Positions 23,064 through 46,218 of a stretch of DNA of 64,000 nt are shown here, one piece after another; positions within the stretch are counted from its first letter, which is position 1; each line of letters begins with the position of its first letter. The position numbers and the translations under genes are program-made. The DNA comes from an uncultured Gammaproteobacteria bacterium (GTDB lineage: Bacteria; Patescibacteriota; Microgenomatia; Levybacterales; UBA12049), in assembly GCA_964416505.1 (NCBI GenBank), contig CAYQEJ010000002.1, positions 90,172-154,171 of the forward strand, written 5' to 3'. Under the pieces are notes generated by a model that was given only the letters and a program-made list of their open reading frames with translations, was not told the origin of the DNA and did no database searches.

Positions 23064-23101
23064 TTATAAAATAATAGCAGTTTTTAGCCTTAAAATAAAG
23101 A

Positions 23102-24118: not shown

Positions 24119-24145
24119 GAGGTCTAAAGAGTATAAACGAGATGA

Positions 24146-25545: not shown

Positions 25546-25558
25546 GTTGGGAATTATA

Positions 25559-26341
25559 TTAAGAAGTAACAAATTTAACAATATTCTTAAATAAAGGTAA
25601 CCCTTGTGGTGAATCGATCGTACCACGACGCCAATTTGGATGCTGCTCGCGCCTCACAAAACATTCGGGATGTGGCATAAGACCCAAAACTCTTCCGGTT
25701 TCGTCCGATATGCCTACGATTGCATTCGTTGAACCGTTCGGATTATCAGGGTATTTTTGAGTAGGATTTCCCTTTTCATCAACGTACCGAAATGCAACTA
25801 AATTTTCTTTTTCAATTTTTTCTAAATTCTCCAAATTTGCTACAAACTTTCCTTCCCCATGCGCCACTGGGTACCAAAGAATTTGATTTTCCATACCTTT
25901 CAAGAACATAGACTTAGAATTTTCTTCAACCTTCACTTTTACCCATCTGCATTCGAAATGCCCTGAATCATTATTAACTAAGGTTGCATCCATCTCTCCA
26001 ATATTTCCAAAAGGCACCAGCCCAGTTCTGACTAAAACTTGAAAACCATTACATACCCCAATAACTGCGGTGTTCGGTCTTTTTATAAATTTGCGAATCT
26101 CATCTCCAAGATATGACACTATCTCAATTGCCAGCACTTTTCCGGAAACTATATCATCTCCATATGCAAATCCTCCAGGAATTCCCAAAATTTGATAATC
26201 AGATAATTTTTCTTTTTTATTTTTTAAGTCATTTATATGAACTAATTTTGCATCTGCTCCCGCTAGATTAAATGCGAATACCATATCCTCATCTCTATTT
26301 ATTCCATCAGCTTTTATGATTATTGCTTTAGGTTTTTTCAT
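25559..26341 (-). CDS. purQ: Phosphoribosylformylglycinamidine synthase, glutaminase subunit
   Basis: Class I amidotransferase triad: GVCNGFQVL (Cys) and HPE at the C-terminus. Start taken at MKKPKAIIIK. Confidence 0.85.
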   Translation of the reverse strand: MKKPKAIIIKADGINRDEDMVFAFNLAGADAKLVHINDLKNKKEKLSDYQILGIPGGFAYGDDIVSGKVLAIEIVSYLGDEIRKFIKRPNTAVIGVCNGFQVLVRTGLVPFGNIGEMDATLVNNDSGHFECRWVKVKVEENSKSMFLKGMENQILWYPVAHGEGKFVANLENLEKIEKENLVAFRYVDEKGNPTQKYPDNPNGSTNAIVGISDETGRVLGLMPHPECFVRREQHPNWRRGTIDSPQGLPLFKNIVKFVTS

Positions 26342-29157
26342 GAAAACATTTCCCTCATTGGCTTCTGCCAAACTTTTTTTAGTTCATCTATGTTTGCTGT
26401 AATTTTTTTATTAGCCAACCCAATTTCAATATTTTTATCTTTTTTTGTTTTTCCAAGAATTTTATAATTCAATTTTTTGAACATTTTATTTGCAATTTTT
26501 TCATTTTCAACTTCTACTAAAAAAGCTCCTGCCGTTTCATTAAAAAGAAAATAATCTTCTCTTTTATTTTTTGGCAGTTTAATATTTACCCCTAAATCCC
26601 CTCCAACACACATTTCAAAAATACTTGAAAAAATCCCCCCTTCGCTTATGTCGTGACAAGATAAAATATTTCCGGAAATGATTTCTTTATTAATTACTTT
26701 TGCTATTTTCCTAAATTTCTTTAAGTCAATTTTAGGGACGTCTTTTCCAACCAAATTATTTACATCAAAGTATGTCGATCCACCCATCGATTCGATATCT
26801 AAATCTCCAACGAGACAAACTGTAGAATTTTCCTTTTTAAAATCGGATGAAATAGTCTTTGATGCATCCGGAATCCTGCCAAAAACCGAGATACATAAAA
26901 CTGGTGGAATTTTTATTACCATATCTCCTTTTCGATAAGTTGATGACAAACTATCTTTTCCAGAAATTACAGGAATTTTTAAATTTCTCATTATGCTCAC
27001 AACTGCATCTACCGAGCTATCAAGACTAGCGAGTGATTCTTCATCAGGAAATGGCCAAATATAATTATTTATGAGTGACGCATCTTCGATATTTCCCCCA
27101 ACTGAGACAAAATTTGACAATGCCTCCACACCAGCCCAAATACTTCCATGAAATGAATCAATTCTATTTAAAATTGGGTTAAGCCCATGAGATAAAACCA
27201 TTCCGTATTTTTTATTAAGGAGAGGTCTTAATACAACACTGTCATTTGGGCTATCTAAATTCTCTCCGGAATACGGCTGCAAATCAGTTGTCCCCTGCAC
27301 TGAATGATCATACATTCGAACTATTGGTTCTTTTGAATTTATATTTCCATGCGACAAAACTTTTTTAAATATTTCAATCCATTCCTTTTCATTTTTTGGA
27401 GATTTAGGAGTTTTATTATCTAAAACATACCTGACAGTATTTCCGATCATATTTCTTTGAGGAAGACCGTTATGTAGAAATTCCATTGAAAGATTTGCGA
27501 CATTTTTTTTACCGAAAAATACTTCAAGTTTTTTTGTATTCGTAAAACTTCCCAAGACAGTCGATTCAACATTATACTTTCTGCAAATTTCCAAAAACTT
27601 TTTTGAGTTTTTCCTAGATACAGCTAAAACCATTCTTTCTTGAGATTCAGAGACCCAAATTTCCCATGGAGAAAGTCCATGATATTTAAGTGGCGCTAAA
27701 GCTAAATCAATTTTTACTCCAGTTTTAGAACCCATCTCCCCAATCGCTGAAGAAAATCCGCCTGCACCACAGTCCGTCATCGCGTTTATAAGTCCACTAT
27801 CACGCGCTTCAATAATCGCATCAAACATTCTTTTCTCTTCAATCGCATTCCCAATTTGAACAGCAGAAGAATTTACTGAAATCGTTTTATCTGTCATCTC
27901 TCCAGATGAAAATGTTGCCCCATGAACACCATCTCTTCCTGTTCTACTCCCAACTGCAATAACTAAATCTCCTTTATTAGGAATCCCTTTTTTTGCATAT
28001 TTTGTCGGAATTATTCCATAAGCTCCAACGATAACAGTTGGCTTAGCACGAAAATCATTATGAAAATGCACTGATCCATTATTTGTGGGAATTCCCATTC
28101 TGTTACCATAATCCCTGACACCATATACAACTCTCTTAAATAAATAATCAGGAGGGAGGCATCCTGCCGGCAATTCCTTAGAAGATAAATTTGGTTTTGC
28201 AAAACAGAAAATATCTGTGGAAGCAATTGTCTTAGCACCTTGTCCTGTTCCTAAAACATCACGAAATACACCACCGCTTCCTGTCATCGCCCCTCCATAT
28301 GGTTCTATTGCAGAAGGACTATTATGAGTTTCGACTTTTCCGCAAATTGAATAACCGTCATAAAATTTCATTACCCCAGAATTGTCCGAAAATGCAGAAA
28401 CTATATTTTTCGGGTGCTTTAATGCTTCTTTTCTAATTCTTTCCATTAATGGCATTTTCTTTTTTCCATCAATTGTTAAATTTGCTTTAAAAGTTTTATG
28501 AGCACAGTGCTCACTCCAAGTCTGAGCTAAAGTTTCTAGCTCTAAATCCGTTGGATCTCTTTTAATTTTTATAAAATAATTTTGAATAACTTTCATCTCA
28601 TCCAAATTAAGAAATAATTTATCTTTTGAAAGATTTATCAGATCATCGTCTGAACAATTTCTAATAGATACCACATTTGTAGGTCCAACTTTCCCTTCTA
28701 TAATTAGAGTCTCTGGTTCTTTTTCTACAACATATTCAATAAGCGGATTATAAAGTCTTTCATGATTTATAAATTCATGTATCTCTTCAAGATTTATTTT
28801 TCCAAAAAAATAATATTCCGTTGAAGAGTCTGCAGCTATAATTTTTGTTTTAAGATCTTTTGCGGATTTTAAAATTGATCCAACTTCAGGATTCATAACT
28901 CCTGGTTTATATGCAATTTCAATTTTTTTTGAACTATCATTAAATACTTTTTTATCAATAGTGTATTCTTGATTAATTTCCTCGGAAAATAATTTATCAG
29001 CTAAATATTTAGCAGTTTTTTTATCTGTACCTTCTAACCTGTAAACTCTCGCTGTTCTAATTTTGGAAGTATTATTTTTACCTAACTGAGCAAATAAATG
29101 CGTAGCTTTTAAATCATCTTTTTCTTCTTTCGAAACAACTCTAATTACATGAATCAT
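26338..29157 (-). CDS. purL: Phosphoribosylformylglycinamidine synthase II with fused N-terminal PurS-like domain
   Basis: 939 aa. The first roughly 80 aa resemble PurS (VRVTLK-like). The rest carries PurL AIR-synthase-related repeats (DFGAGG-like CGAGGFSSAIGE). Confidence 0.85.
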   Translation of the reverse strand: MIHVIRVVSKEEKDDLKATHLFAQLGKNNTSKIRTARVYRLEGTDKKTAKYLADKLFSEEINQEYTIDKKVFNDSSKKIEIAYKPGVMNPEVGSILKSAKDLKTKIIAADSSTEYYFFGKINLEEIHEFINHERLYNPLIEYVVEKEPETLIIEGKVGPTNVVSIRNCSDDDLINLSKDKLFLNLDEMKVIQNYFIKIKRDPTDLELETLAQTWSEHCAHKTFKANLTIDGKKKMPLMERIRKEALKHPKNIVSAFSDNSGVMKFYDGYSICGKVETHNSPSAIEPYGGAMTGSGGVFRDVLGTGQGAKTIASTDIFCFAKPNLSSKELPAGCLPPDYLFKRVVYGVRDYGNRMGIPTNNGSVHFHNDFRAKPTVIVGAYGIIPTKYAKKGIPNKGDLVIAVGSRTGRDGVHGATFSSGEMTDKTISVNSSAVQIGNAIEEKRMFDAIIEARDSGLINAMTDCGAGGFSSAIGEMGSKTGVKIDLALAPLKYHGLSPWEIWVSESQERMVLAVSRKNSKKFLEICRKYNVESTVLGSFTNTKKLEVFFGKKNVANLSMEFLHNGLPQRNMIGNTVRYVLDNKTPKSPKNEKEWIEIFKKVLSHGNINSKEPIVRMYDHSVQGTTDLQPYSGENLDSPNDSVVLRPLLNKKYGMVLSHGLNPILNRIDSFHGSIWAGVEALSNFVSVGGNIEDASLINNYIWPFPDEESLASLDSSVDAVVSIMRNLKIPVISGKDSLSSTYRKGDMVIKIPPVLCISVFGRIPDASKTISSDFKKENSTVCLVGDLDIESMGGSTYFDVNNLVGKDVPKIDLKKFRKIAKVINKEIISGNILSCHDISEGGIFSSIFEMCVGGDLGVNIKLPKNKREDYFLFNETAGAFLVEVENEKIANKMFKKLNYKILGKTKKDKNIEIGLANKKITANIDELKKVWQKPMREMFS

Positions 29158-30449
29158 ATTACTCTTTCTAAATCACGCCAGCCGATATCAGTTCTGTAAT
29201 GAAGATTATTTCCTGAAACATTTATATAAGAAATTGCACCATATGCCCTACTCCTTGCAGAATCTAAATTTAATCCTTCACCTACAATATGAAAAACTCT
29301 TCCACCATTAACGATAAATCTATCTTTTTCTTTCGAAATCCCTGCTCCAAAAACTAAAACGTTTGGAAATTTATTTATTTTTTCTAAACCTCTTACATTT
29401 TTTCCTTTAACGGAGGCATAATCCAATGGATAACCTTTCGCACATCCTGCAACACTTACTCTTTTTAAATTATCAGTTTTCAGTTTTGTTTTTTTAAGTT
29501 TTTTATTAATTACTGATTCTATCAAGTTTAAATAATCAGTTTTAATTCCCGGTATTAAAACTTCAGCTTCCGGATCTCCCCATCTAGAATTAAATTCAAC
29601 AATTTTTACACCATCATTAGTTATCATGCCTCCTAAGTAAAGTATTCCACTATAATTTCTTTTTTCTTTTTTCATTCCGTTCATAAAGGGGATTAAAATT
29701 TTTTTGTCAATTTCATTTAATGTTTTACTGTTTATAATCTGAGGATTGGACACGCATCCCATTCCTCCGGTATTAAGACCCTCATCGCCATTAAAGACTC
29801 TTTTATGATCCTGCGCACTTCCAATTATTTGATAATTTTCTCCATCACATATTACGAATAAAGAAAATTCTTCACCTATCATTTCTTCTTCAACTAAAAA
29901 AATCTTACCTGAATCTCCAAAATTTTTCATTTGCTTTATGGCATCAATTGCTTCTTTTTTATTCCCAGCTCTAATAGCGCCTTTTCCCAAAGCTAGTCCT
30001 GATGCTTTTATAAAAAGAGACTGCTCTCTCAAACTTTTTACGTAAAATATTCCTTTTTTAGGATCACTAAAAGATTTAAAATGCGGAATCGGCAAGTGAT
30101 ACTTAAGCATAAAATTTCTGGACCACTCTTTATTCCATTCAATTTCAGATGCCAGCTTAGTCGGCCCAAACACCTTAATTCCTAATTCACCTAGCTTATC
30201 AACAAATCCTAAAGATAGTGGATCATCCGAAGATACATCTACTAAATCAATTTTATATTTATAAATTATTTTTTTTATATTTTCAAAATCTACAGAAGAT
30301 ATTTCGATTAAAGAAATAGACTTTTTATTTTTATAGTCTATAAAAGGATTTCCAGGAGTTATAAATATTTTTTTTACTTTTTTATTCTTAGCATAAGCAT
30401 CTGCTAGAACATGTTCCCTTCCACCAGATCCAATTATTAAAATATTCAT
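29154..30449 (-). CDS. purD: Phosphoribosylamine--glycine ligase
   Basis: MNILIIGSGGREH N-terminus with an ATP-grasp fold. Confidence 0.9.
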   Translation of the reverse strand: MNILIIGSGGREHVLADAYAKNKKVKKIFITPGNPFIDYKNKKSISLIEISSVDFENIKKIIYKYKIDLVDVSSDDPLSLGFVDKLGELGIKVFGPTKLASEIEWNKEWSRNFMLKYHLPIPHFKSFSDPKKGIFYVKSLREQSLFIKASGLALGKGAIRAGNKKEAIDAIKQMKNFGDSGKIFLVEEEMIGEEFSLFVICDGENYQIIGSAQDHKRVFNGDEGLNTGGMGCVSNPQIINSKTLNEIDKKILIPFMNGMKKEKRNYSGILYLGGMITNDGVKIVEFNSRWGDPEAEVLIPGIKTDYLNLIESVINKKLKKTKLKTDNLKRVSVAGCAKGYPLDYASVKGKNVRGLEKINKFPNVLVFGAGISKEKDRFIVNGGRVFHIVGEGLNLDSARSRAYGAISYINVSGNNLHYRTDIGWRDLERVI

Positions 30450-31042
30450 TTACAAATTTTACTTAGTACATCTACGTACATTTTATTTTCTTTTTTCTTA
30501 AGTCTTGTATACAAAGATTCTATAGAGTCTCCCTTCTCAATCTTTTCAAATGTTTTTCCTAAGACCTTACCAAAATCAAATTGATTAGATAAAAAATGTA
30601 TTGTCGATCCAGCATAAGTTGCATTATTATCTAAAAAATTTTTAATTGCAACATCTGTTAATTTACCCCTATTCCAAATTCCTTTTGTCTTATCGGGATT
30701 ATAAACAAATCCATCAATTTTATCCGGAATAAGCCCTGGATGAAGATTTAATATTTTATATTTTTTTATAATCTCATCAGGTACTATTAACTTCCATCCC
30801 GCTAAACAAATGTAATCTATATTATATTTACTTAATGAGCTTTCTAATTCATCTTTTTTAACAATTTCTGTTTTTATATTATTTTCTTTAGCTCGTACTA
30901 AACCGTATGCATCAATATCACTGCTAATAACAATGCTTATTCTTGCATTTATTTTTTTTGAATTTATTCCCTCAATAATCGCCTGAAGATTTGAACCTGT
31001 TCCAGCATTTGATATGAGAACTGCGAGGTTTTTCATTAACAA
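30446..31042 (-). CDS. purN: Phosphoribosylglycinamide formyltransferase
   Basis: LAVLISNAGTGSNLQAII and the NLHPGL motif, as in PurN. Confidence 0.8.
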   Translation of the reverse strand: MLMKNLAVLISNAGTGSNLQAIIEGINSKKINARISIVISSDIDAYGLVRAKENNIKTEIVKKDELESSLSKYNIDYICLAGWKLIVPDEIIKKYKILNLHPGLIPDKIDGFVYNPDKTKGIWNRGKLTDVAIKNFLDNNATYAGSTIHFLSNQFDFGKVLGKTFEKIEKGDSIESLYTRLKKKENKMYVDVLSKICK

Positions 31043-32457
31043 TTAAAATTAATTAAACGTGAGTATTTTCCAATATCAATTGGATAATTTCCAGTAAAAC
31101 ATGCGGTGCATAATTTCTCTTCAGGAACACCTATTGCCCTAAGCAATCCTTTGTATGAAAGATAATATAACGAATCAGATCCGATAAATTTTCTAATATT
31201 TGCGATACTCATATTGGCTCCAATCAAATTTTTTTGTTTTGGAGTATCGATACCATAAAAATCAGGAAATTTTACAGGAGGAGACGAAGAAATCAAGTGA
31301 ACTTTTTTGGCACCATTTTTCTTAAGCATTAATACAAGTTTTTTAGATGTGGTTCCCCTAACTATGGAATCATCAATTACAACTACAGTTTTCCCCTTTA
31401 TAGTTTCTCCAATTGGATTATGCTTCATTTCAACTCCCCTTTCCCTAAGATGTTGATCTGGCATTATGAAAGTTCTTCCAATATATCTATTTTTAGTTAA
31501 AGCAAACTCTAACGGAATTTTTAATTTAGAAGCATATCCAATTGCAGCTGGAACGGAAGAATCAGGAACTGGAATAACCATATCAGCTTTTATGGGATTT
31601 TCCTTAGCAAGTTGAATTCCCATGTTCTTCCTAACCTCATAAATACTTTTTCCCATAAGATAACTATCCGGTCGAGAAAAGTAAACAAACTCAAAAATAT
31701 CTAATTTTAAATTTGGTTGTGCTAACTGATATGACTTAAGACCTTTTGAGCTAACAACAACCATTTCTCCTGGTTTTATATCTCTTAAAACAATTCCATC
31801 AACAGTGTCTATCGCACATGTCTCAGATGAAAAAACGTAACCTCCTCCAAGTCTCCCAATCGAAAATGGTCTTATTCCATATGAATCCCTCACTGCAGCG
31901 ATTTTATCTTTTGTCATTACCAACAAGCAAAATGCACCTTTAAACATAGGGAAAGATTTTTTTATAGCCTCTTCCAGAGATCCGGTCTTAACTAAAAAAT
32001 ATCTTATGATCTGATGCATAAGTTCAGAATCATTCAAACCATCTGTATAAAAACCTTGCTCTTTAAGAAATTTAGAAAGATTATCCGTAACAGGAAGATT
32101 TCCATTGTGTGCTAGAACCAAAACATCATCTGGACCTCTTCTAGATGTTACTGGCTGAATGTGAGTATCGTGTATTCCTCCTGAGGTTGCATATCTATTA
32201 TGACCTATTGCCATGTGACCTTTTAAATTTTTAAAATTCTCCTCATTGTAGACCTGAGCTACTAAACCTTGTCCTTTATGTGTTCTTATTCTTTTTCCAT
32301 TCGATGCAGAAATTCCCGAACTCTCCTGACCTCTGTGTTGAAGTGTATATAATCCGAAATATGTTAATCTAGCAGCTTGAAGACCCTTTCTACCATACAC
32401 GCCAAATAAGGCGCATTTTTCATTTATTTTTTCTGGATCCTTTTTTAAACTCATCAA
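31036..32457 (-). CDS. purF: Amidophosphoribosyltransferase
   Basis: N-terminal nucleophile Cys (CALFGVYG), the glutamine amidotransferase type 2 domain and a PRTase motif (VVVIDDSIVRGTT). Confidence 0.9.
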   Translation of the reverse strand: MMSLKKDPEKINEKCALFGVYGRKGLQAARLTYFGLYTLQHRGQESSGISASNGKRIRTHKGQGLVAQVYNEENFKNLKGHMAIGHNRYATSGGIHDTHIQPVTSRRGPDDVLVLAHNGNLPVTDNLSKFLKEQGFYTDGLNDSELMHQIIRYFLVKTGSLEEAIKKSFPMFKGAFCLLVMTKDKIAAVRDSYGIRPFSIGRLGGGYVFSSETCAIDTVDGIVLRDIKPGEMVVVSSKGLKSYQLAQPNLKLDIFEFVYFSRPDSYLMGKSIYEVRKNMGIQLAKENPIKADMVIPVPDSSVPAAIGYASKLKIPLEFALTKNRYIGRTFIMPDQHLRERGVEMKHNPIGETIKGKTVVVIDDSIVRGTTSKKLVLMLKKNGAKKVHLISSSPPVKFPDFYGIDTPKQKNLIGANMSIANIRKFIGSDSLYYLSYKGLLRAIGVPEEKLCTACFTGNYPIDIGKYSRLINFNC

Positions 32458-33902
32458 CTACTTAGGGCTTCCAAATTTTTTTGATTAAATTCTTTATAAA
32501 TAATTTTTTTACCAGTGATCTTTTGATAAATTTTACTATAACGATTGCTTACTTGTTTTGCAAGAGATTGAGTCATTTTTGGCGGCTCTCCATTTCCTTT
32601 ATATCCTCTTTTTGCATACCAAAGTCTCAAAAATTCTTTATCAAAATTTTCTGGCTCTAGTCCCTTTTTAAAACGATCTACATAGGTCTTTTTTATCCAA
32701 AATCTTGATGAATCTGGTGTATGAATCTCATCAATTAAAATTAATTTCCCTTTTTCATCAATTCCGAATTCATACTTAGTATCAACTAAAATAATTCCGC
32801 CTTTTGCGCAAATTTTTTCTCCTCTTTCAAATAATTTGATCGCTACATTTTTCATCTCTCGCCAAATTTTAGGAGTAACTATTTTTCTTTGAATTATTTC
32901 TTTTTCTGTCAATCTTTCATCATGGCCTTTTTCTGCTTTTGTAGTAGGGGTAACTATTGGTTTTTCCAATTTTTGATTTTTTTTCAGTCCGTCAGGAAAC
33001 TTAATTCCATAAATTACCCTATCGCCTTTTTGATATGAACCCCAAATAGAAGTATCTGTAACGCCTGTAATATAACCCCTAACAACCATCTCTATCGGTA
33101 TGGATTTCACATTCTTAGCAATCATTACGTTTGGATGAGGGATGGAAATCATATGATTTTGGACTATGTCTTTTGTTTTATCAAACCAAAATGCAGATAT
33201 CTGATTTAGTACCGCACCTTTACCTGGTATCAAACCAAGCACGCGATCAAAAGCTGAAATTCTATCAGTTGTGATTAATATTCTCTTTCCATTACTAACA
33301 TAATAATCTCTAACTTTACCCTGATATTTTTTACCAAATCCATTTAAATCCACAGTGTCAATTTTTTTCTTCCTACTTAAAGCTGCTACCATACCATCGT
33401 ACAAAACATCTGGACAAGCCCAAAATGCATCACCAAAAATTTCTGGTTTTTCCACAAGATTTTTCATAAGTAATTTTTTTGAAAATTTTTTAAAACTTAC
33501 AGATTCATGATTTAATTTTGGCTTTTGATCAGATTTAATTTCAAAAATAATAAAATAATGATTTTCATCTCTTCCAAGAATTTTTCTCTGGAAAATTGTT
33601 TTACCAATATATTTATACTTAAATTTTGAGATTCCCAGTTCTTCCAAAGCTTCTCTTTTTAAAGCATCTTCATAGGATTCACCAGAACGAATATGTCCTC
33701 CAACGGGAGAAACATATTTTCCTGGATCCTGCCTATCTTTTGCTTGCTTCACTAAAAGAAAATTTCCTTTAGAATCAATTACCTGAGCTATAACTATTTT
33801 ATGTAGCAATCCCTTTTTATGAGCTGCTAACTTATCAACTGAATAAGTTTTTTTCAAATTCTTATCTACAATATCAATTTTTTCTAAATTATTATTTTTC
33901 AT
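32454..33902 (-). CDS. purC: NUDIX hydrolase domain fused to SAICAR synthetase
   Basis: N-terminal Nudix box [24 protein letters not shown]. The C-terminal roughly 300 aa are PurC-like (KVRDYYV...[12 protein letters not shown]). Confidence 0.8.
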
Positions 33903-34404
33903 CTAAATATTTTTGGAATCCAAGTTTTTCTAATTTACTCACTTTCTTCAATACTTCTTTTTCCATATTTTTTTTAAATTCTAAAACCTTATTTGCAACT
34001 TTTTTATTTGATATTCCTATAATACTTGCTGCTAAAATCCCTGCATTTTTTGCTCCGTTTACAGCAACAGTCGCGACAGGAATCCCGGGTGGCATTTGAA
34101 CAATAGATAGAAGCGAATCCATTCCATCGAATGTTTTACTTTTTACTGGAACTCCAATAACTGGAATATTTGTTAGCGATGCAACCATTCCTGGCAAATG
34201 AGCTGACCCACCAGCTCCGGCAATTATTACTTTCGATTTTTTATTTGCAGATTTAGCAAATTCAAACATTCTCTCAGGAGTTCTATGCGCAGATACTATT
34301 GTAAGTTCATAAGTAACACCTAGTAAATCAAGAATTTCAGCTGCTTCCTTCATAACTCCTAAATCTGAATCGGATCCCATTATTATGGCTACATCTTTTT
34401 TCAT
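33892..34404 (-). CDS. purE: N5-carboxyaminoimidazole ribonucleotide mutase
   Basis: [13 protein letters not shown]...[10 protein letters not shown] and [13 protein letters not shown] match PurE. Confidence 0.9.
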
Positions 34405-37264: not shown

Positions 37265-38059
37265 TTGTATAATCTTATAATGAATTTAATCACTCTTAAT
37301 ACATGGGGTGGAAAAGCTCTAGAGCCACTACTTGATTTCATTTCAAAAAAATCATCTAAAGTAGATATTTTTTGCTTTCAAGAGATATATGACTCATCGA
37401 TATCCAAAAATACTCCTTCTGAATTCCGAGCAAATCTTTTATCTGAAATAAAAAATATATTACCTGGATACCATTATTTATATTCACCACAGTTTAGTGG
37501 TCGTGAATTCCATGCAAAAGTTGATTATCCACTTTCTCAAGGCTTAGCTACATTTTGGAAAAAAGATTTAGAAATAAAAAGCAAAGGAGACATTTTTTTA
37601 TTTGCACAAAAAGATGAAATAATTGAAGTGCCAGGTGAAGATTTTATTATCCCGCCTCGAAATATTCAGTATTTAATTTTTGAAAATTTTATGTGTCTGA
37701 ATCTACACGGATACTGGGCTCCTCTTCCAAAATTCGACACTCCTCAAAGATTAGAACAATCCATAAAAATAATTGAGTTCATTAAGAAGATAAATTTGCC
37801 AGTTATTTTATGTGGAGATTTTAATCTTGGAATAAACACTCAATCTATTTTAATGTTTGAAAATTTTGGACTAGAAAATTTAGTTAGAAAATATAAATTA
37901 AAAACAACAAGAACTAATCTATATGATGAAAAATGGAAAAAGTTTGATGAATTCGCCGATTATATTTTTACAAAAGATATTAAAATAAACGTTTTTAAAA
38001 CTATGAATGATGATATCTCTGATCACTTACCACTTTTTCTCGAATTTGAGCTAAAGTAA
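37265..38059 (+). CDS. Endonuclease/exonuclease/phosphatase (EEP) family protein
   Basis: LNTWGG N-terminus, FCFQE and a C-terminal SDHLPL, as in EEP family catalytic motifs. Confidence 0.65.
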
Positions 38060-39575
38060 CAGGAGAAACAAGCTCTAACGCATTTTGCAAAGAAGTTACG
38101 ACTGTTGGATTATAACCTTTAGAGAGCAACTTCAAATATGCTCCTCGTACTCTATCCAACGAGAGCTGATCATCTATTACGGCTTCCACTTCCTCTTTCA
38201 CATAACGATTGTCCCTGTAATAATAGCTAACTGGATGAGCATTCCTTAGGTGTTCACTTAACTCATCAATAATTCTTTTATCTGGTACGTGGAGCAAAAT
38301 CCTCGTATTATCATTTCCACGTTGTAATCCTACTATTAATTCAAAGAGCTTTGATCTATCTACACCTTCCTCCAAATCTGCTTCAGTTAACCCAAGCATT
38401 GTCACTCCTATTGCCCTCCTCCATGACTCCGGTGGAACACCCAATGTATGCCAGGTTCTGTCTTCAATTGGACGTTCTGAAATATGCTCAACTAAATCCA
38501 AATCCCCATCTCTCAATTGAACCTCAGCACTACCAATTCCCATTGCTCTCAAGATTGCATTTCTTCTTTGTCTAGCCTTTTCAAGCTGCATTTCTCTTTG
38601 TCTTTCGCTGGTCGAATAAACTCGCTCGTCTCCTGAATAAACATGATCTCCCAATGATATCTGCATTCGATGCGTTAATTTTCTTAAAGCTTTCCTCTCA
38701 ATCTGCCTAATTCTTTCCCGGGTAACATTGAAAGCTCTGCCTAATTCTTCATAGGTCATAACCCCCGTACCGTTAAATCCAAATCTTGAAATTATTACCT
38801 GCTTTTCTCTATCTTTAAGGTCTCCCATTGCACTAATTATTGCAATTTCAGCTTCGCTCTTAAAACCTTCCATAGGCTTATAACTACCATCATCTGCTTC
38901 CTGCAATTCTCCGCTTGAGACAATTAATTTGTCGACATATTTTTCAACTTCATCTTTTTGCTCTCCAAAAGCTTCGACAATTTCCATAACTAATTCTTCA
39001 CGGCTATAATGAGACTGAATCCCAGACATAACAGCTTCCTTAATATTTAAATATTTTCCTGATCTAATCCAACCGAGTGGCATACTTTCCCTATCTGCAA
39101 TAAAACGCATTGCACCTTTTTGGATTAAATTAGGTACCATCCAGTTACTATGGTCTGTATAGTCAGCTGCGTTTTGAAAATAATTATCAATTCCTGCATG
39201 AAGCGCTTCTCCATCAAAATCTTCATCACCACTTGAAAAAGAATCAATTACTGATACAGCACTCCTCATTCTAAGAAAAAGCAGTGTCCTTTTTGCATTT
39301 GCTGAAGTATCAGGATCTTCGGACTTCATGTCAGAAATTAGACTATCGCTTACTGATTTAGGGATTCGAAAATCTACCAACTGAGCATACCTCCTATAAA
39401 ATGCCATAGGACTTATATCTGGTGCTTCTGCATATATTTCGGTAGCTAAATTTGTAGTAAGATCTCCAAGATTTTCTATAGAGCCGGATCTAACTTCCCT
39501 GGCAAGCATTATAGCTCTCGTATTTGGATCCCTAGCTTGATCTAATGGATTTGGTCTTAAGGCCTCAATTAACAT
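38001..39575 (-). CDS. Sigma-70 family protein with long N-terminal region and an unusual ~210-aa extension C-terminal to region 4.2
   Basis: [15 protein letters not shown]...LGWIRSG is a diverged region 2.2/2.3. [12 protein letters not shown]...[28 protein letters not shown] is a canonical region 4.1/4.2 HTH. Another 210 residues follow it. Composition differs from the neighbours. Confidence 0.6.
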
Positions 39576-41556: not shown

Positions 41557-42096
41557 TTGCGTTTTATAGTAAATTTACCTTTCTCTTACAAGAATATAAT
41601 AATCAAAATGAGCATACTTCAAAAAATAAATTCGCCACTATTTGATTACGGACATTACAAATTATATGTGAGAACTGATTATAACCAAACATCAATTACC
41701 ATGTTTTTGCAAACTCCTTTCTATCACACCAAATCAGTTCCGAACACTCACGAAATTTTAAATAATATTCTTCCTCAGGTTCTCAAGAACAAATGTTTCA
41801 ATGATTCAAATCTACCCTTTAAAGAAGAGGTAAAAAATACAGAAATTGGACATTTATTTGAACACATCATTCTTGAATATTTATGTCAAATTAAAGTAAG
41901 AAATGGATACAGAAAAGCAAGTTTTAGTGGATTAACAGAATGGGATTGGAAGAAAGATTTAAAAGGAACATATCATATTAAAATAAAAATTGATCCTACC
42001 GATTTGATATTTTTTAATAAAGCCCTTAATGAAAGCGTAATACTTTTAAATAAAATTTTGATAAGCGCATACTCAAAGCAAATCACAATTAACTAA
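41557..42096 (+). CDS. Hypothetical protein
   Basis: ORF; the real start may be the internal MSILQK at about 41608. Followed by a hairpin terminator. Confidence 0.4.
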   Translation: MRFIVNLPFSYKNIIIKMSILQKINSPLFDYGHYKLYVRTDYNQTSITMFLQTPFYHTKSVPNTHEILNNILPQVLKNKCFNDSNLPFKEEVKNTEIGHLFEHIILEYLCQIKVRNGYRKASFSGLTEWDWKKDLKGTYHIKIKIDPTDLIFFNKALNESVILLNKILISAYSKQITIN

Positions 42097-42098
42097 AC

Positions 42099-42126
42099 AA
42101 ACCGCAGTTTCTTGCGGTTTGTTTTT
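42099..42126. terminator. Bidirectional rho-independent terminator
   Basis: aaaccgcag-tttct-tgcggttt followed by gttttt on the plus strand. It sits between the convergent genes at 41557..42096 (+) and 42147..42323 (-). Confidence 0.55.
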
Positions 42127-42146: not shown

Positions 42147-42323
42147 TTATTCTTCCTTTAGATCTTCCTGATTTGTAATATCATTATTCACTATCTCTTC
42201 ATCTAAATTAGAATTATCAGCATCTGTATCAGTTGAAGCTTCTCCACCTGCTATTCCTGAGTCATTATTCTCATTCAAATCAGATTGATCGTCTGTATTT
42301 TGATTTCTTTTTGGATCAAACAT
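42147..42323 (-). CDS. Small acidic protein (58 aa), not in the ORF track
   Basis: Minus-strand ORF MFDPKRNQNTDDQSDLNENNDSGIAGGEASTDTDADNSNLDEEIVNNDITNQEDLKEE. A strong SD (GAAGGGGGGTG) sits 8-10 nt upstream, and the terminator follows directly downstream. Confidence 0.35.
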   Translation of the reverse strand: MFDPKRNQNTDDQSDLNENNDSGIAGGEASTDTDADNSNLDEEIVNNDITNQEDLKEE

Positions 42324-42408: not shown

Positions 42409-43704
42409 TTATTTTCTACTTAGAGGTAATTTTATAATGAAAACCGAACCTTTTCCTATCTTGCTTTTTACATCTAATTCTCCACCATGAGCTTCAATAA
42501 TTTTTCTTGATATAAATAGTCCTACACCAATTCCTTTATAAGACTTTACATCAGAACTTCTATTAAATATTTCAAAAATATGTTTTTTATCCTCATCCTT
42601 TATACCGATTCCTTTATCTGTAACTGAAATTATTGCGAATTTATTTTCTTTTTCTACCTTTAGTAAAATAGGTTTCCCTTCTCCATATTTAATTGCATTT
42701 GAAATTAAATTTGATACCACCTGTTCAATTCTGACTTTATCCCAAATACCATAAAAATTACCTTTTATCTCTATTTTCAATTTTATTTTTTTATTTTTTA
42801 AAATAACATCAAACTTTTTTTGTATATCTAAAATTAATTTATTAAGATCAACTCGATCTGAGTCAATCTGAAAATAATCTGTTGAGGCCAATGAGACATT
42901 TAAAAGATCATTTATGAGCTTAGACATTCTTTTACTTTGTTCTATACCTACTTCAATCGCACTGATTAATTCATCTGATGCATCAATCTGAGTAGTACTT
43001 TTTTTAATTTTTTTTAGGACTAATTGAAGACTTAAAAGAATGGAAGTCAATGGAGTTTTCAGCTCATGAGAAGCAATAGAAAGAAATTCATCCCTAAGCC
43101 TAATCGCCTCTTGCGCCTTCGTAAAGAGCATTGCCTTATCCACAGTTATTGCAGCTCTATCAGCTAACTCTTGAATAAAAATTGCATCTTCTTCAGAATA
43201 AGAAAAGTTTTTTTCAGTAGATCCAATCGTCATGACCCCAATCACCTGTCCCCTACTATGAAGAGGCACAAACATAAAAGAAGAAAAATTAAAAAATTTC
43301 ATTAATTCTTTTTCTTCTTTAATTTTAGACACTGAGTTAATCCACTTATCGCTAACATTCCTAATAATTATTGGTCTACCTAATTTAATGGTTTCATATG
43401 TAGCGTTTTTATTTTTTGGATCAGAAGGAAATTCATAAAATTTTTGAGCCTCAATATTTTTCTTATGATCGTGCATTTTAACAACTACTCTTTGAAGCTG
43501 CCCATCTTCCAAAATATCTATCGTACAAAAGTCAGCAATGGAATCCACAATCATTTTACCTATGCTAACTAACGTGACATGATAATCAAGACTTGAAGAA
43601 AGAATTTTACTGGCAGATGAAAGGAAAAGAATCTTATCCTTAACTATATATGGCATCCCAGGTATTTTACCAGAAATAGCCTTTATAACTTGTAATAAAA
43701 GCAT
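42409..43704 (-). CDS. Sensor histidine kinase with GAF domain
   Basis: N-terminal GAF-like region, HisKA (ASHELKTPLTSI) and HATPase_c (DKGIGI..., GGIGLGLFISRKIIEAHGG). Confidence 0.8.
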   Translation of the reverse strand: MLLLQVIKAISGKIPGMPYIVKDKILFLSSASKILSSSLDYHVTLVSIGKMIVDSIADFCTIDILEDGQLQRVVVKMHDHKKNIEAQKFYEFPSDPKNKNATYETIKLGRPIIIRNVSDKWINSVSKIKEEKELMKFFNFSSFMFVPLHSRGQVIGVMTIGSTEKNFSYSEEDAIFIQELADRAAITVDKAMLFTKAQEAIRLRDEFLSIASHELKTPLTSILLSLQLVLKKIKKSTTQIDASDELISAIEVGIEQSKRMSKLINDLLNVSLASTDYFQIDSDRVDLNKLILDIQKKFDVILKNKKIKLKIEIKGNFYGIWDKVRIEQVVSNLISNAIKYGEGKPILLKVEKENKFAIISVTDKGIGIKDEDKKHIFEIFNRSSDVKSYKGIGVGLFISRKIIEAHGGELDVKSKIGKGSVFIIKLPLSRK

Positions 43705-43717
43705 TTTATGGTTAAAA

Positions 43718-44953
43718 TTGTTTGCTTATATGTCAGCTAATGAAAAAGGGCCAAAAATGCCACCCAGAGGTGAAGTAAGAATTGTTACAAGCGGTAGAAG
43801 TTACGGAGGCGAAACTGAGATACACGAAAAAGCAAAACCTTTGATTTCTTTAGTTGATGGAATTTCACCCTTTGGACCACCACCATTATGGCAAAGGACT
43901 CAACTAGATATTCTACAAAGTCCTGAAGGTAAAAGAGCAATGGAAACATACTGGACCCCAGGAATAGATGCAGCAAAAAAACAAATCATGGCAAGATATG
44001 GATTGGATGAAGATTCATATGTTGTTCCAAACGCAAGAACAGGCGTAGATGGACTACTTAGAACATCACTTATTTTGATACCCAGAAAAACAGTTCGTGG
44101 ACCTCGGATTGCACAAGTAGGTCCATATTACCCAGGATACAGAAATCAAATGACTGTTGTAGGAGGTGTAACTCCTTATCCATATTCACCTAGTATAGAA
44201 ATGACTGCCGATGAAGGAATACTAAGTATTATCGAAAAACATGAAAAAGATCCAGTACCATTTACTAATCTTTATTTTTCAAGAGTCGATTTCAAAGGAG
44301 ATGTAGTTAGTCGTGAAGTCGCACTAAAAGCTGTAAAACATTTTACAGATGCTGGAATTCAAGTTGATCTTGATGAAGTAGGTCTTGAAGCAGTTGCAAC
44401 AGAAGAATCTTTAGCAAAAGAAACGCAAACAAATCCCAGATTAAGAGTTTATTCTGATGCTTCTAAAGTACTCGGAGTTCCTGGACTAGGGTTTGGGTTT
44501 GTAATTACAAACAATTCTCTAGGACCAATATTTGAAAGAGCTATGGGAGACAGATACATTCGAGGAGTTGATGCACTACTACTAAATGCATTTTGGCAAA
44601 ACGCTAATATACAACCTCATTTAGAGACTGTAAGACCTAAAATAAAACATGCAAAAGGCACATTAACTCAAGAGTTAAAAAGACTGGGTGTTAAGATTTT
44701 ACCTACCGATGAAAGGACAACAACATTAGTTGTAGATGGAATAGAACCAGGATTAGCAAATGCTACGAGAAAGGCAGGGCTAATTCTTGCCGGAGGAGGA
44801 GGATATGATAAAACAAGCGAACCTTCTTTATCTACCCAACACGTAAGAATTGTAATTTCTGAAACTGACAGAATGAACCTTGAAGTTGCTCAACGCATAA
44901 ATGTTGCTGTCAGAGCAAATCTGCGGGATAAAACCCCAACTAGAAAAAGATAG
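43718..44953 (+). CDS. PLP-dependent aminotransferase-like protein (class I/II fold, HisC/CobD-like), divergent
   Basis: SDASKVLGVPGLGFGFVITN aligns with the SxSKxxxxPGLRxG PLP-lysine motif, but the Arg is replaced by Gly. A DLDEVGLEA segment resembles the D(E)AY motif. Opposite strand to the flanking HK and RR genes. TAG stop. Confidence 0.45.
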   Translation: MFAYMSANEKGPKMPPRGEVRIVTSGRSYGGETEIHEKAKPLISLVDGISPFGPPPLWQRTQLDILQSPEGKRAMETYWTPGIDAAKKQIMARYGLDEDSYVVPNARTGVDGLLRTSLILIPRKTVRGPRIAQVGPYYPGYRNQMTVVGGVTPYPYSPSIEMTADEGILSIIEKHEKDPVPFTNLYFSRVDFKGDVVSREVALKAVKHFTDAGIQVDLDEVGLEAVATEESLAKETQTNPRLRVYSDASKVLGVPGLGFGFVITNNSLGPIFERAMGDRYIRGVDALLLNAFWQNANIQPHLETVRPKIKHAKGTLTQELKRLGVKILPTDERTTTLVVDGIEPGLANATRKAGLILAGGGGYDKTSEPSLSTQHVRIVISETDRMNLEVAQRINVAVRANLRDKTPTRKR

Positions 44954-44955
44954 GA

Positions 44956-45618
44956 TTATTTAATTACATAACCAAATCCACGAACCGATTCGATTAACTT
45001 TTTATTTTGCCCTTTATCAATTTTATTTCTTAAATATCCAACATACACATCAACTACTCTTGTCTCAACGTCAGGTGAATATGCCCACACATGATTCAAA
45101 ATCCTGTCACGACTTAGAACAACTCCTTGATTTAACATGAGATACTCAAGTAGCTTAATTTCTTTTGCTGTTAATTCAATTTTCTTACCCCCTCTAACTA
45201 CTTCTAGTGAATGCGTATTTAAACTTAAATCATCAATTGAAAGCACAGGAGTCGGACTTTTTTTAAGCCTTGTTTTTATACGCGCCAATAATTCCTCGAA
45301 ATCAAATGGCTTAGAAATATAATCATCTGCTCCAAGACCTAAACCATTAACCACATCTTGTGCCTTATTTTTTGCAGTCAAGATTATAATTGGGAGATCA
45401 GGAAATATTTTTTTTGCTTCCTGACAAACTGTTTCACCGCTTACATTTTCTATGCCTAAATCTAATACTACTAAATCAATATTTCCTTCTTTAATAGTTT
45501 TTAATGCTTGTGCGCCATCAGAGGTTTCGAAAACTTTAAATCCTGATTCAAGAAGAGCCTGCTTTACAAACTCACGAATATTCTTGTCATCTTCTACCAA
45601 AAGTATATTTTGAACCAT
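44956..45618 (-). CDS. OmpR-family response regulator
   Basis: Receiver domain (LLVEDD...DLVVLDL..., the K of TAKNK) and a winged-helix C-terminus (RVVDVYVGYLRNKID). Confidence 0.9.
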   Translation of the reverse strand: MVQNILLVEDDKNIREFVKQALLESGFKVFETSDGAQALKTIKEGNIDLVVLDLGIENVSGETVCQEAKKIFPDLPIIILTAKNKAQDVVNGLGLGADDYISKPFDFEELLARIKTRLKKSPTPVLSIDDLSLNTHSLEVVRGGKKIELTAKEIKLLEYLMLNQGVVLSRDRILNHVWAYSPDVETRVVDVYVGYLRNKIDKGQNKKLIESVRGFGYVIK

Positions 45619-45950
45619 AAAGCTTGGTTATTTTCTCACAATTCTTACAGTATTTCACATCAAAAACATGTAAGAAATTCGTAAGATTTATCTATCAACG
45701 GCATTTATAATGAATAGGTAGCGACCATCCAAAAACTTTTGGCAGTATTTTTTATTTTGCTAGGAATAAATTTGGAAAAAGATATTTTAGGTAGTTTTAA
45801 TTTTATCTCCACATGGGATTCCGAAATACTTGTCGGTAGATATACTCCATTATTATTTATTAAGGCAGTTTTCATAATTTAAATTTACCATTTAAATATT
45901 AGATTAACTTTCATTTTAAGTAAGAATTTAAACATACTTTTATACAAAAA

Positions 45951-45985: not shown

Positions 45986-45995
45986 TTAGGAGGCT

Positions 45996-46130
45996 TATCT
46001 TGATGTAGAACTATTTTCCCTATTATTCATAGAAGCTCTTCTTCCCCTCGCTTGACCGCCTTTTCTTCCTGCTTTAGAATGGCCCTGTGAGTCCCCAAAC
46101 CATCCTCTTCCTCTACTACTCTGTGGCATA
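45996..46130 (-). CDS. KGG-repeat stress-induced small basic protein (44 aa), not in the ORF track
   Basis: MPQSSRGRGWFGDSQGHSKAGRKGGQARGRRAS... matches the KGG/YciG-YmdF 'stress-induced protein' repeat (A..AGRKGGQ). SD AAAGGGGGTGAAG upstream, and the terminator downstream. Confidence 0.45.
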
Positions 46131-46218
46131 TTCTTCACCCCCTTTCATATACAACCAATATAAGGTGATTTTTTATGACAAAAGACAAAAAAGAGTATGA
46201 ATTATGTTAACAAAGAAG

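What the first reader, a model, noticed from the sequence alone, without database searches (positions are those of the whole stretch)
42409..45618. Two-component pair split by an opposite-strand aminotransferase-like gene lacking the conserved arginine
The response regulator (44956..45618) and GAF histidine kinase (42409..43704) are co-oriented like a normal RR-HK operon. The plus-strand gene 43718..44953 sits between them, 13 nt from the HK start and 2 nt from the RR stop. The inserted protein has the class I/II aminotransferase lysine motif (SDASKVLGVPGLGFGFV), but the substrate-carboxylate Arg of GLRxG is replaced (GLGFG). It also has an unusual 60-aa N-terminus, suggesting a divergent or non-canonical PLP enzyme. 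The arrangement implies either insertion into the operon or an antisense/regulatory relationship.
Basis: partly seen in the sequence, partly recalled or inferred. Interest (0 to 1): 0.5.

Follow-up and report, generated by a model that had tools for sequence, protein, structure and literature searches.

The report
Aminotransferase-like gene embedded in two-component module
A fast-evolving relative of histidinol-phosphate aminotransferase, which here has lost several cofactor-binding residues, sits between a soluble sensor kinase and its response regulator; the same three-gene layout recurs in distant uncultured relatives, so it is an old conserved module and not a recent insertion, but its function is untested.

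Summary
The three genes exist as described. Comparison with orthologues moves two start codons. The kinase starts at 43656 and the middle gene X at 43730, so they are 73 nt apart, not 13.

X is a genuine fold-type-I, class I-beta (HisC/CobD-like) aminotransferase homologue:
- AlphaFold2 with 90 sequences gives pLDDT 92.8.
- The best PDB matches are HisC structures.
- The family profile matches HisC at E 4e-28.

The Arg eight residues after the lysine binds the PLP phosphate. It is Gly254 here. The substrate-anchoring Arg (R373) is retained.

X lacks four of the nine residues conserved in I-beta aminotransferases: N185R, P186V, Y218G and R254G. Two phosphate-contact serines are also replaced (S106V, S243D). 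It keeps K246, D215, G105, G256 and R373.

The layout is not a recent insertion:
- 12 of 13 family members examined have the orthologous soluble GAF kinase head-to-head with X.
- 8 of 11 have the OmpR-type regulator tail-to-tail with X.
- The flanking genes differ between these loci.

Conserved back-to-back promoters show that the kinase has its own, probably leaderless, transcript.

X is under purifying selection (dN/dS 0.10) but changes 3 to 13 times faster than the kinase and regulator.

The most likely function is a metabolic or sensory partner of the two-component system. This is inferred, not shown.

The parts
42409..43656 (-). Soluble GAF-HisKA-HATPase_c sensor histidine kinase, 415 aa. 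The start is corrected from 43704 to 43656.
   Evidence: Pfam: GAF_2 4.8e-10, HisKA 1.5e-13, HATPase_c 1.1e-27. There is no transmembrane segment (maximum KD19 1.31). Orthologues in L001, L022, L023, L025 and L029 are 49-71% identical. All of them, and the kinase fragments in L003, L024, L031 and L032, start MPY/MAY.
43664..43672 (-). Extended -10 promoter element of the kinase (TGGTAAAAT on the minus strand). It ends 7 nt before the kinase ATG, which implies a leaderless kinase mRNA.
   Evidence: TGnTAnnAT ends 6-10 nt before the kinase start codon in 10 of 11 loci. Function is inferred from geometry and conservation.
43690..43718 (+). Promoter of the aminotransferase-like gene: TTGTAA, 17-nt spacer, TAAAAT, ending 11 nt before the ATG at 43730.
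   Evidence: Reported by the consensus scan. TTGnnn-17-TAnAAT lies 8-20 nt before the X start codon in 9 of 11 loci. Function is inferred.
43730..44953 (+). X: a 407-aa homologue of class I-beta (HisC/CobD-like) fold-type-I aminotransferases. It keeps K246, D215, Y74, Y134, Y25 and R373. It carries S106V, N185R, P186V, Y/F218G, S243D and R254G.
   Evidence: AF2 pLDDT 92.8, pTM 0.91. Foldseek best matches are HisC 3ftb, 8bj3 and 3get. hhalign against canonical family members gives probability 100%, E 4e-41. The residue table is. dN/dS is 0.10 against L003.
44465..44467 (+). Codon of Lys246, the predicted Schiff-base lysine.
   Evidence: Invariant in all 90 aligned family members. It aligns with the SK lysine of HisC structures.
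44489..44491 (+). Codon of Gly254. This position, eight residues after the lysine, holds the PLP-phosphate arginine in canonical enzymes.
   Evidence: The family has Arg in 29 and Gly in 16 of 48 members. The role of this Arg as a salt bridge to the PLP phosphate is taken from PMC4703992.
44846..44848 (+). Codon of Arg373, equivalent to the substrate-anchoring arginine (mArAT Arg330, AAT Arg386).
   Evidence: Invariant in 48 of 48 members and nearly invariant in the 90-member alignment.
44956..45618 (-). OmpR/PhoB-type response regulator, 220 aa, tail-to-tail with X (2-nt gap).
   Evidence: Response_reg 1.8e-29, Trans_reg_C 2.4e-27. Orthologues are 65-84% identical and sit in the same position in L001, L022, L025, L029, L003, L031 and the P0011 contig.
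42147..42323 (-). Acidic 58-aa ORF downstream of the kinase, probably on the same transcript.
   Evidence: Homologous small ORFs follow the kinase in L001 and L022. Whether it belongs to the module is uncertain.
42095..42124 (-). Hairpin terminator (12-bp stem) that closes the kinase and small-ORF transcription unit.
   Evidence: Terminator scan.

Best explanation
**What it is.** The locus is a vertically inherited three-gene module. It is not an operon that was recently split. X is a native, protein-coding, fast-evolving member of a small and sparse subfamily of class I-beta (HisC/CobD-like) fold-type-I aminotransferase homologues.

**How it is arranged.** In nearly every genome where this subfamily was examined, X lies head-to-head with one orthologous soluble GAF histidine kinase. 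In most it also lies tail-to-tail with the cognate OmpR-type regulator. X and the kinase are transcribed from two back-to-back promoters in a gap of about 73 nt. The kinase mRNA is probably leaderless. The regulator is transcribed separately.

**Most likely function (inferred).** X is the metabolic partner of the two-component system. In one version it makes or removes the amino-acid or keto-acid type ligand read by the cytoplasmic GAF domain. In the other it is the output controlled from the shared promoter region. Both may hold.

**This lineage.** In the window lineage the phosphate-binding part of the PLP site is largely replaced, while the lysine, aspartate, stacking aromatic residue and substrate arginine are kept. 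Here X probably binds the cofactor weakly or in an altered way. It may act more as a ligand-binding or regulatory protein than as a normal transaminase.
For: **Fold and family**
- AF2 pLDDT is 92.8.
- The best PDB matches are HisC and CobD.
- The 48-member profile matches HisC 3hdo at E 3.6e-28.
- 46 of 48 members hit PF00155 and 48 of 48 hit the CobD model.
- hhalign of the window subclade against canonical members gives E 4e-41.

**Real gene**
- dN/dS is 0.10 against a 96%-identical copy.
- GC3 is like that of its neighbours.

**Conserved module**
- The GAF kinase is divergent from X in 12 of 13 members examined.
- The regulator is convergent with X in 8 of 11.
- At least four different flanking contexts occur.

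**Promoters**
- Both promoters are conserved in 9 to 10 of 11 loci.

**Rates**
- L001 against L022: kinase 85%, regulator 93%, X 40% identity.
- L031: kinase fragment 69% and regulator fragment 89% identical to the window, while X is about 24%.

**Cofactor site**
- The residue losses are tabulated.
- Residue roles come from PMC4703992.

**Kinase**
- It is soluble, with no transmembrane segment.
Against: - No expression, binding or activity data exist.
- Linkage alone does not prove a functional link. Interleaved promoters could by themselves hold the kinase-X pair together.
- No response-regulator binding repeat was recognised in the intergenic region beyond the promoter elements.
- Two members (L023, L033) lack the adjacent regulator. 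One more distant member (L030) sits in a purely metabolic cluster.
- About 20 of 90 family members also lack the Arg eight residues after the lysine. This change alone need not abolish function.
- The AF2 coordinates could not be inspected, so the state of the cofactor pocket rests on alignment only.
Confidence: 0.55

Rival explanations
1. X is an ordinary housekeeping or catabolic aminotransferase with no functional tie to the two-component system. The adjacency persists only because the promoters and gene ends interlock in a very compact genome.
For: Canonical family members keep all PLP residues. The more distant member P0033 lies in a metabolic cluster of M20 peptidase, GNAT and an enolase-superfamily gene, with no two-component genes. 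Single opposite-strand genes and abutting convergent genes are common in this window.
Against: The kinase-X pair is kept at about 50% kinase identity and about 25% X identity, while everything around it changes. 12 of 13 members examined show it. In the window lineage four of the nine I-beta-conserved residues are lost. X evolves 3 to 13 times faster than its neighbours, which is unusual for a housekeeping enzyme.
Confidence: 0.2
2. X is a pseudoenzyme that acts as a third protein component. It binds a metabolite in the old active site and contacts the kinase or regulator directly to modulate signalling. This is comparable to MalY sequestering MalT, or to the aminotransferase-like sensor domain of GabR/MocR regulators.
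For: The PLP-phosphate contacts S106, S243 and R254, together with N185 and Y218, are lost, while the fold and the substrate arginine are kept. Purifying selection continues. Sequence change is very fast, as is often seen in binding partners. Linkage to the kinase is strict. There is a precedent for a class I PLP-fold protein regulating by protein contact: MalY-MalT (PMC10427625, found; abstract only read).
Against: K246 and D215 are invariant, which points to retained cofactor chemistry. Canonical members in the same module look catalytically competent. No interaction evidence exists.
Confidence: 0.2
3. The layout works as an excludon-like antisense switch. Transcription from the regulator's promoter reads through X in antisense, possibly on into the kinase gene. 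Expression of X and of the regulator or kinase would then be mutually exclusive.
For: There is no room for a terminator, and none is predicted, between the regulator and X (gap 2 nt here, -33 to +5 nt elsewhere). The first terminator found on the minus strand lies after the kinase and small ORF, at 42095..42124. The excludon concept is documented (PMC12288877, found; abstract only read).
Against: The kinase has its own conserved promoter, so read-through is not needed. Abutting convergent genes are the rule in this genome (7 of 9 pairs), so this junction is not special. There are no RNA data.
Confidence: 0.15

Closest known systems
Histidinol-phosphate aminotransferase HisC and the other class I-beta aminotransferases (aromatic aminotransferases, CobD threonine-phosphate decarboxylase)
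   Same: - Fold-type-I architecture. The best structural matches are 3ftb, 8bj3, 3get and 1lkc (TM 0.65-0.81).
- N-terminal lid tyrosine.
- The motifs GS, NPxxPxG, DEA(Y/F) and SxSK-x7-R-x-G-Y in the family consensus.
- The C-terminal substrate arginine.
   Different: - Only 13-19% identical to solved structures.
- About 40-60 residues longer.
- Family-specific motifs: SPFGPP, GPHFP, LPTDxRVPI.
- NCBIfam scores are far below the hisC and CobD cut-offs (30 bits against 290).
- The window protein lacks Asn, Pro, Tyr and Arg of the nine conserved I-beta residues.
- It lies next to a sensor kinase instead of histidine or cobalamin genes.
MalY/PatB-type class I PLP-fold proteins with a second regulatory role, and the aminotransferase-like effector domain of GabR/MocR regulators
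   Same: A class I aminotransferase fold used in signal transduction as well as, or instead of, catalysis. This is an analogy for the proposed role (PMC10427625, abstract only, for MalY; GabR/MocR from general knowledge).
   Different: No sequence-specific relationship was tested. X has no fused DNA-binding domain. Its partner would be a histidine kinase or response regulator, which is not known for MalY or MocR proteins.
Two-component systems with an accessory third gene (for example LiaFSR, YycFGHI, PhoR-PhoU), and the soluble GAF-kinase dormancy system DosS/DosT-DosR
   Same: A conserved extra gene is embedded in the two-component locus. The kinase is cytoplasmic with a GAF sensor. Small stress-type genes lie nearby in several loci: an HSP20 gene and sub-threshold hits to YflT, Transgly_assoc and KGG. 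The comparison rests on general knowledge.
   Different: Known accessory proteins are membrane or small proteins, not PLP-fold enzymes. DosS has two GAF domains, a HisKA_3 domain and a NarL-type partner. Here there is one GAF domain, HisKA and an OmpR-type partner.

Membership tests
Fold-type I PLP-dependent enzymes, class I/II aminotransferases (Pfam PF00155) | Score at or above the Pfam gathering threshold | tested here: not met
   18.3 bits against a cut-off of 19.7, E 0.0014, spanning profile positions 41-360 of 361. 46 of 48 family relatives match PF00155 at E 0.01 or better; the best is 5e-30.
Fold-type I PLP-dependent enzymes, class I/II aminotransferases (Pfam PF00155) | Fold-type-I three-dimensional architecture | tested here: met
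   AF2 pLDDT 92.8, pTM 0.91. Foldseek gives 1615 PDB matches at E 0.001 or better, and all 50 best are class I aminotransferase-fold enzymes.
Fold-type I PLP-dependent enzymes, class I/II aminotransferases (Pfam PF00155) | Schiff-base lysine, and the aspartate that pairs with the pyridine nitrogen | tested here: met
   K246 is invariant in 90 of 90 members. D215 is present in the window protein and in 47 of 48 members.
Class I-beta aminotransferases (HisC, aromatic aminotransferases, CobD) | The nine residues conserved across I-beta enzymes (mArAT Gly84, Asn157, Pro158, Asp184, Tyr187, Lys217, Arg225, Gly227, Arg330; PMC4703992) | tested here: not met
   5 of 9 are kept: G105, D215, K246, G256, R373. 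4 of 9 are replaced: N185R, P186V, Y218G, R254G. Canonical family members such as P0004, P0008 and P0011 keep all nine or differ only by Tyr to Phe.
Class I-beta aminotransferases (HisC, aromatic aminotransferases, CobD) | Binds PLP and catalyses transamination or decarboxylation | not testable with these tools
   This needs purified protein: absorbance at 330 and 420 nm, and activity assays.
HisC (TIGR01141) and CobD (TIGR01140) equivalogs | Score above the NCBIfam trusted cut-off | tested here: not met
   The window protein scores 30.3 bits against the CobD cut-off of 290.55, and only over residues 194-332. It has no hisC hit at E 1 or better.
Conserved module of GAF kinase, aminotransferase-like gene and OmpR-type regulator (defined here) | Orthologous soluble GAF-HisKA-HATPase kinase head-to-head with X across a gap of about 72-113 nt | tested here: met
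   Found in the window and in 11 other family members (L001, L003, L022, L023, L024, L025, L029, L031, L032, L033, the P0011 contig) out of 13 examined.
Conserved module of GAF kinase, aminotransferase-like gene and OmpR-type regulator (defined here) | OmpR-type regulator tail-to-tail with X | tested here: met
   Found in the window and in L001, L003, L022, L025, L029, L031 and the P0011 contig. Absent in L023, L033 and L030 (same calls).
Excludon (overlapping antisense transcription units) | Demonstrated long transcript antisense to the neighbouring gene | not testable with these tools
   There are no RNA data. The only observation is the absence of a predicted terminator at the X-regulator junction.

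The most novel reading that the evidence does not exclude
A PLP-fold protein has been recruited as an integral third component of a cytoplasmic GAF-kinase/OmpR two-component system in a clade of uncultured small-genome bacteria. In lineages such as this one it is turning into a pseudoenzyme. It would sense a metabolite in the old active site and modulate the kinase or regulator directly. That would be a signalling architecture not described before.
Probability: 0.2. Interest if true: 0.7.

Novelty: new variant of a known kind. Interest (0 to 1): 0.45.

Why it matters
If the linkage is functional, it defines an undescribed three-gene signalling module in poorly understood, probably host-dependent, uncultured bacteria. 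In this module an aminotransferase-fold protein is tied to a soluble GAF sensor kinase. That would point to a small-molecule signal, such as an amino acid or keto acid, for an orphan kinase family.

It would also give a natural series running from a canonical enzyme to a form with a degraded cofactor site within one gene neighbourhood. Such a series is useful for studying how enzymes turn into regulators.

If the linkage is not functional, the result is simply a divergent aminotransferase subfamily and a correction to the gene starts and to the role of the missing arginine.

Tried and rejected
- **AF2 with 3 sequences.** It gave pLDDT 40.6 and was unusable. It was superseded by the 90-sequence run.
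- **Single-sequence and 3-sequence profile searches of PDB sequences.** They found nothing meaningful. Only the 48-member profile reached HisC.
- **Metagenome scans.** The scan with A4 gave 2 loci, one already known.
- **Word-indexed protein searches.** The search with the family alignment was swamped by generic aminotransferases. The search with the GAF domain gave one hit. I therefore could not test whether orthologous kinases occur without X, and I could not obtain organism names.
- **Cluster look-up.** It gave no source names.
- **The afdb50 fold library.** It was unavailable.
- **Recent horizontal insertion.** Rejected. The higher GC of X (0.38 against 0.29-0.33) lies in codon positions 1 and 2. 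GC3 is 0.17 against 0.20 for its neighbours.
- **A spurious ORF.** Rejected on dN/dS of 0.10.
- **The tight X-regulator junction as a special feature.** Rejected, because 7 of 9 convergent pairs in the window are equally tight.
- **Rfam and tRNA scans of the window.** Both were empty.
- **Literature searches** for an aminotransferase linked to a two-component system in these bacteria. They found nothing.
- **The KGG-motif assignment of the 47-aa peptide.** It is only sub-threshold (E 0.12).
Full report
**1. Observation**

The window contains three ORFs at the stated positions: 42409..43704(-), 43718..44953(+) and 44956..45618(-).
- Pfam identifies the first as a GAF-HisKA-HATPase_c histidine kinase.
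- Pfam identifies the third as an OmpR-type response regulator (Response_reg plus Trans_reg_C).
- The middle protein, X, matches PF00155 (Aminotran_1_2) over almost the whole profile. The score is just under threshold: 18.3 bits against 19.7, E 0.0014.
- NCBIfam gives X only a partial CobD hit of 30 bits against a cut-off of 290.
- The quoted motif lies at 44453..44503, with the lysine codon at 44465..44467.

Two start codons need correcting.
- All orthologous kinases begin MPY/MAY... and have 411-418 aa.
- A conserved promoter lies within the supposed 16-residue extension. The kinase therefore starts at 43656.
- X starts at ATG 43730. That 407-aa sequence is present verbatim in NCBI on a 170-kb contig.
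- The head-to-head gap is then 73 nt. The other loci have 72-113 nt.

**2. What X is**

Only two close homologues were found by the word-indexed search of 5.8 billion proteins: P0001 (96% identity) and P0002 (58%).

An exhaustive HMMER search with the three-sequence profile found 87 cluster representatives at E 0.001 or better, and 48 at E 1e-10 or better. Nearly all are 400-440 aa and match over the full length.

Evidence that this family belongs to the class I aminotransferases:
- 46 of 48 members hit PF00155 (best E 5e-30).
- All 48 hit the CobD model and 46 hit the hisC model, all below the equivalog cut-offs.
- A profile of the 48 matches solved HisC structures: 3hdo E 3.6e-28, then 3ffh, 1h1c and 1fg3. 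It also matches CobD 1lc5.
- hhalign of the window subclade against four canonical members gives probability 100% and E 4e-41 over 383 columns.

Structure prediction:
- AlphaFold2 with only 3 sequences failed (pLDDT 40.6).
- With 90 sequences it gave pLDDT 92.8 and pTM 0.91.
- Foldseek places that model among HisC, CobD, LysN and AspAT structures, with TM 0.65-0.81 and 13-19% identity.

X is therefore a fold-type-I, class I-beta-like protein. The family is distinct from HisC and CobD. It is about 40-60 residues longer and has its own motifs: SPFGPP, GPHFP and LPTDxRVPI.

**3. The active site**

PMC4703992 lists the residues conserved across I-beta aminotransferases, in mArAT numbering:
- Gly84, Asn157, Pro158, Asp184 and Tyr187.
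- Lys217, which forms the internal aldimine.
- Arg225, eight residues after the lysine. The equivalent Arg240 of mHspAT forms the salt bridge to the PLP phosphate.
- Gly227.
- Arg330, which anchors the substrate phosphate or carboxylate.
- A lid tyrosine (Tyr25 in mHspAT) that swings into the active site.

By motif and spacing these correspond to family positions G105, N185, P186, D215, F/Y218, K246, R254, G256, R373 and Y25.

| Status in the window protein | Residues |
|---|---|
| Kept | Y25, Y74, G105, Y134 (aromatic stacking position), D215, K246, G256, R373 |
| Replaced | N185R, P186V, F/Y218G, R254G |
| Also replaced (phosphate-contact serines) | S106V, S243D |

S243 lies three residues before the lysine. 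I equate it with AAT Ser255 from general knowledge.

The window protein, P0001 and P0002 form the most degraded group among the 90 members. P0003 is intermediate. Gly at position 254 recurs in about 20 of 90 members.

The so-called unusual N-terminus is the normal HisC-type lid.

**4. Is X a real, native gene?**

Yes.
- Against the 96%-identical copy in L003, dN/dS is 0.10.
- The higher GC of X comes from codon positions 1 and 2. Its GC3 (0.17) is like that of its neighbours (0.20). This argues against recent acquisition.

**5. The arrangement in other genomes**

I looked up the contigs that encode 12 other family members. Identity is that of X to the window protein.

| Locus (protein) | Identity | Kinase head-to-head | Regulator tail-to-tail |
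|---|---|---|---|
| L003 (P0001) | 96% | yes (fragment) | yes |
| L001/L002 (P0002) | 58% | yes | yes |
| L022 (P0003) | about 36% | yes | yes |
| L025/L026 (P0008) | about 25% | yes | yes |
| L029 (P0016) | about 25% | yes | yes |
| P0011 contig (no DNA held) | about 25% | yes | yes |
| L031 (P0005) | about 24% | yes (fragment) | yes (fragment) |
| L024 (P0006) | about 27% | yes (fragment) | contig ends |
| L032 (P0020) | about 24% | yes (fragment) | contig ends |
| L023 (P0004) | about 25% | yes | no |
| L033 (P0039) | about 22% | yes | no |
| L030 (P0033, E 8e-16) | about 20% | no | no |

- L030 instead carries X in a co-directional cluster: M20 peptidase, GNAT, an enolase-superfamily gene, X, then ThrRS.
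- Counting the window, 12 of 13 members have the kinase and 8 of 11 with enough sequence have the regulator.
- The flanking genes differ between groups. The window type has GSDH and a Cyanophycin_syn-like gene on one side, with Na/Ca exchanger and CysRS on the other. L025 and L029 have a glycosyltransferase or MFS gene, with Gmad2, a hydrolase and an amidase. The P0011 contig has a P-type ATPase, with YflT and HSP20. L023 has TopA, DUF5667 and SpoU.
- The module is thus conserved independently of its surroundings.

**6. Transcription signals**

On the kinase strand, an extended -10 element (TGnTAnnAT) ends 6-10 nt before the kinase start codon in 10 of 11 loci.

On the X strand, TTGnnn, exactly 17 nt, then TAnAAT lies 8-20 nt before the X start codon in 9 of 11 loci.

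In the window these elements are at 43664..43672(-) and 43690..43718(+).

From this geometry I infer the following:
- The kinase has its own promoter and a leaderless mRNA.
- X has a very short leader.
- The regulator and kinase are therefore not one operon interrupted by X.

Terminators:
- None is predicted at the X-regulator junction.
- The first terminator on the minus strand follows the kinase and a 58-aa acidic ORF, at 42095..42124.
- Seven of nine convergent pairs in this window abut or overlap. The 2-nt junction is typical of this genome and carries no special meaning.

**7. Evolutionary rates**

X changes much faster than its partners.

| Comparison | Kinase | X | Regulator |
|---|---|---|---|
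| Window vs L001 (identity) | 71% | 59% | 82% |
| Window vs L022 (identity) | 70% | 37% | 84% |
| L001 vs L022 (identity) | 85% | 40% | 93% |
| Window vs L031 (identity) | 69% (fragment) | about 24% | 89% (fragment) |
| L001 vs L022 (dN) | 0.10 | 0.67 | 0.05 |

**8. Interpretation**

Shown:
- X has a HisC-like fold.
- Its cofactor-phosphate contacts are partly replaced.
- It is a native gene under purifying selection.
- It belongs to a conserved module of kinase, X and regulator.
- The promoters of the kinase and of X are conserved and separate.

Inferred:
- X is functionally tied to the two-component system.

The kinase is soluble (no hydrophobic segment), so it must read an intracellular signal through its GAF domain. 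From general knowledge, GAF domains can bind small metabolites, for example 2-oxoglutarate in NifA and branched-chain amino acids in CodY. An aminotransferase-type protein handles exactly such compounds.

The simplest model has two parts. X sets or reports the level of the kinase's ligand. X is also co-regulated with the kinase from the shared 73-nt promoter region. In the window lineage the degraded phosphate pocket and the fast divergence suggest a shift toward a binding or regulatory role.

The rival explanations are:
- chance or structural linkage of an ordinary enzyme;
- a full pseudoenzyme third component, by analogy with MalY-MalT (PMC10427625; abstract only read);
- an excludon-like antisense arrangement (PMC12288877; abstract only read).

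None of these can be settled without RNA or protein experiments.

**9. Organism**

Three features suggest an uncultured small-genome bacterium, possibly of the candidate phyla radiation:
- low GC (0.34);
- dense, strand-biased coding;
- a relative whose longest contig is 785 kb.

This is inference only.

**10. Novelty and score**

The protein is a new, degraded variant within a little-known subfamily of a very well-known fold. Full-text searches found no description of the conserved three-gene module.

It is a solid comparative-genomics lead, not a demonstrated new mechanism. Interest is 0.45.

Noticed in passing
window 45995..46138 (-); also L001 12835..12978, L022 8816..8947, L029 3209..3403: A conserved 43-64-aa basic peptide with the motif GRGW(F/H)GDSxGH(S/A)KAG travels with the module. 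It lies upstream of the regulator in the window clade and downstream of the kinase in L029. It resembles the stress-induced KGG repeat, but only below threshold (PF10685, E 0.12).
   Followed up: partly
window 45705..45875 (-); L001 12547..12714, L022 8523..8699, L025 7949..8122: A conserved 55-58-aa ORF ending ...KSFWxVxTY lies directly upstream of the response regulator in both module clades. It may be co-transcribed with the regulator. It has no Pfam match.
   Followed up: partly
window 42147..42323 (-) and hairpin 42095..42124: A very acidic 58-aa ORF follows the kinase (homologues in L001 and L022). After it comes a 12-bp-stem terminator that could serve both converging transcription units. 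L025 and L029 instead carry arrays of 3-5 small ORFs after the kinase, several of them homologous between those two loci.
   Followed up: partly
neighbours of the module in the P0011 contig, L029, L025 and L001: Stress-type genes recur next to the module: HSP20, YflT-like, Transgly_assoc and Gmad2. The YflT hit in L001 is sub-threshold. This hints that the two-component system may control a stress or dormancy set. No test was done.
   Followed up: no
window 22041..34404 (-): This stretch holds genes of de novo purine biosynthesis: PurL-like (939 aa), PurD, PurF-like and a NUDIX-PurC fusion (32454..33902). Only these four were scanned in the window. The same fusion, followed by PurE and PurK genes, is called in L001.
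   Followed up: partly
window, whole: Coding is strongly biased to one strand: 50 of 63 ORFs of 120 aa or more are on the minus strand. Seven of nine convergent gene pairs abut or overlap (-41 to +8 nt). Termination must therefore often occur inside the opposing gene. The 64 kb contain no tRNA and no Rfam match.
   Followed up: partly
window 38001..39575 (-): A 524-aa protein whose only Pfam match is sigma-70 region 4, at residues 249-300. This is an atypical sigma-like or regulatory protein.
   Followed up: no
L030 1373..5808: A more distant member of the X family sits in a co-directional cluster with an M20 peptidase, a GNAT acetyltransferase and an enolase-superfamily (MR_MLE) gene. This suggests an ancestral role in peptide or amino-acid metabolism for the family.
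   Followed up: no
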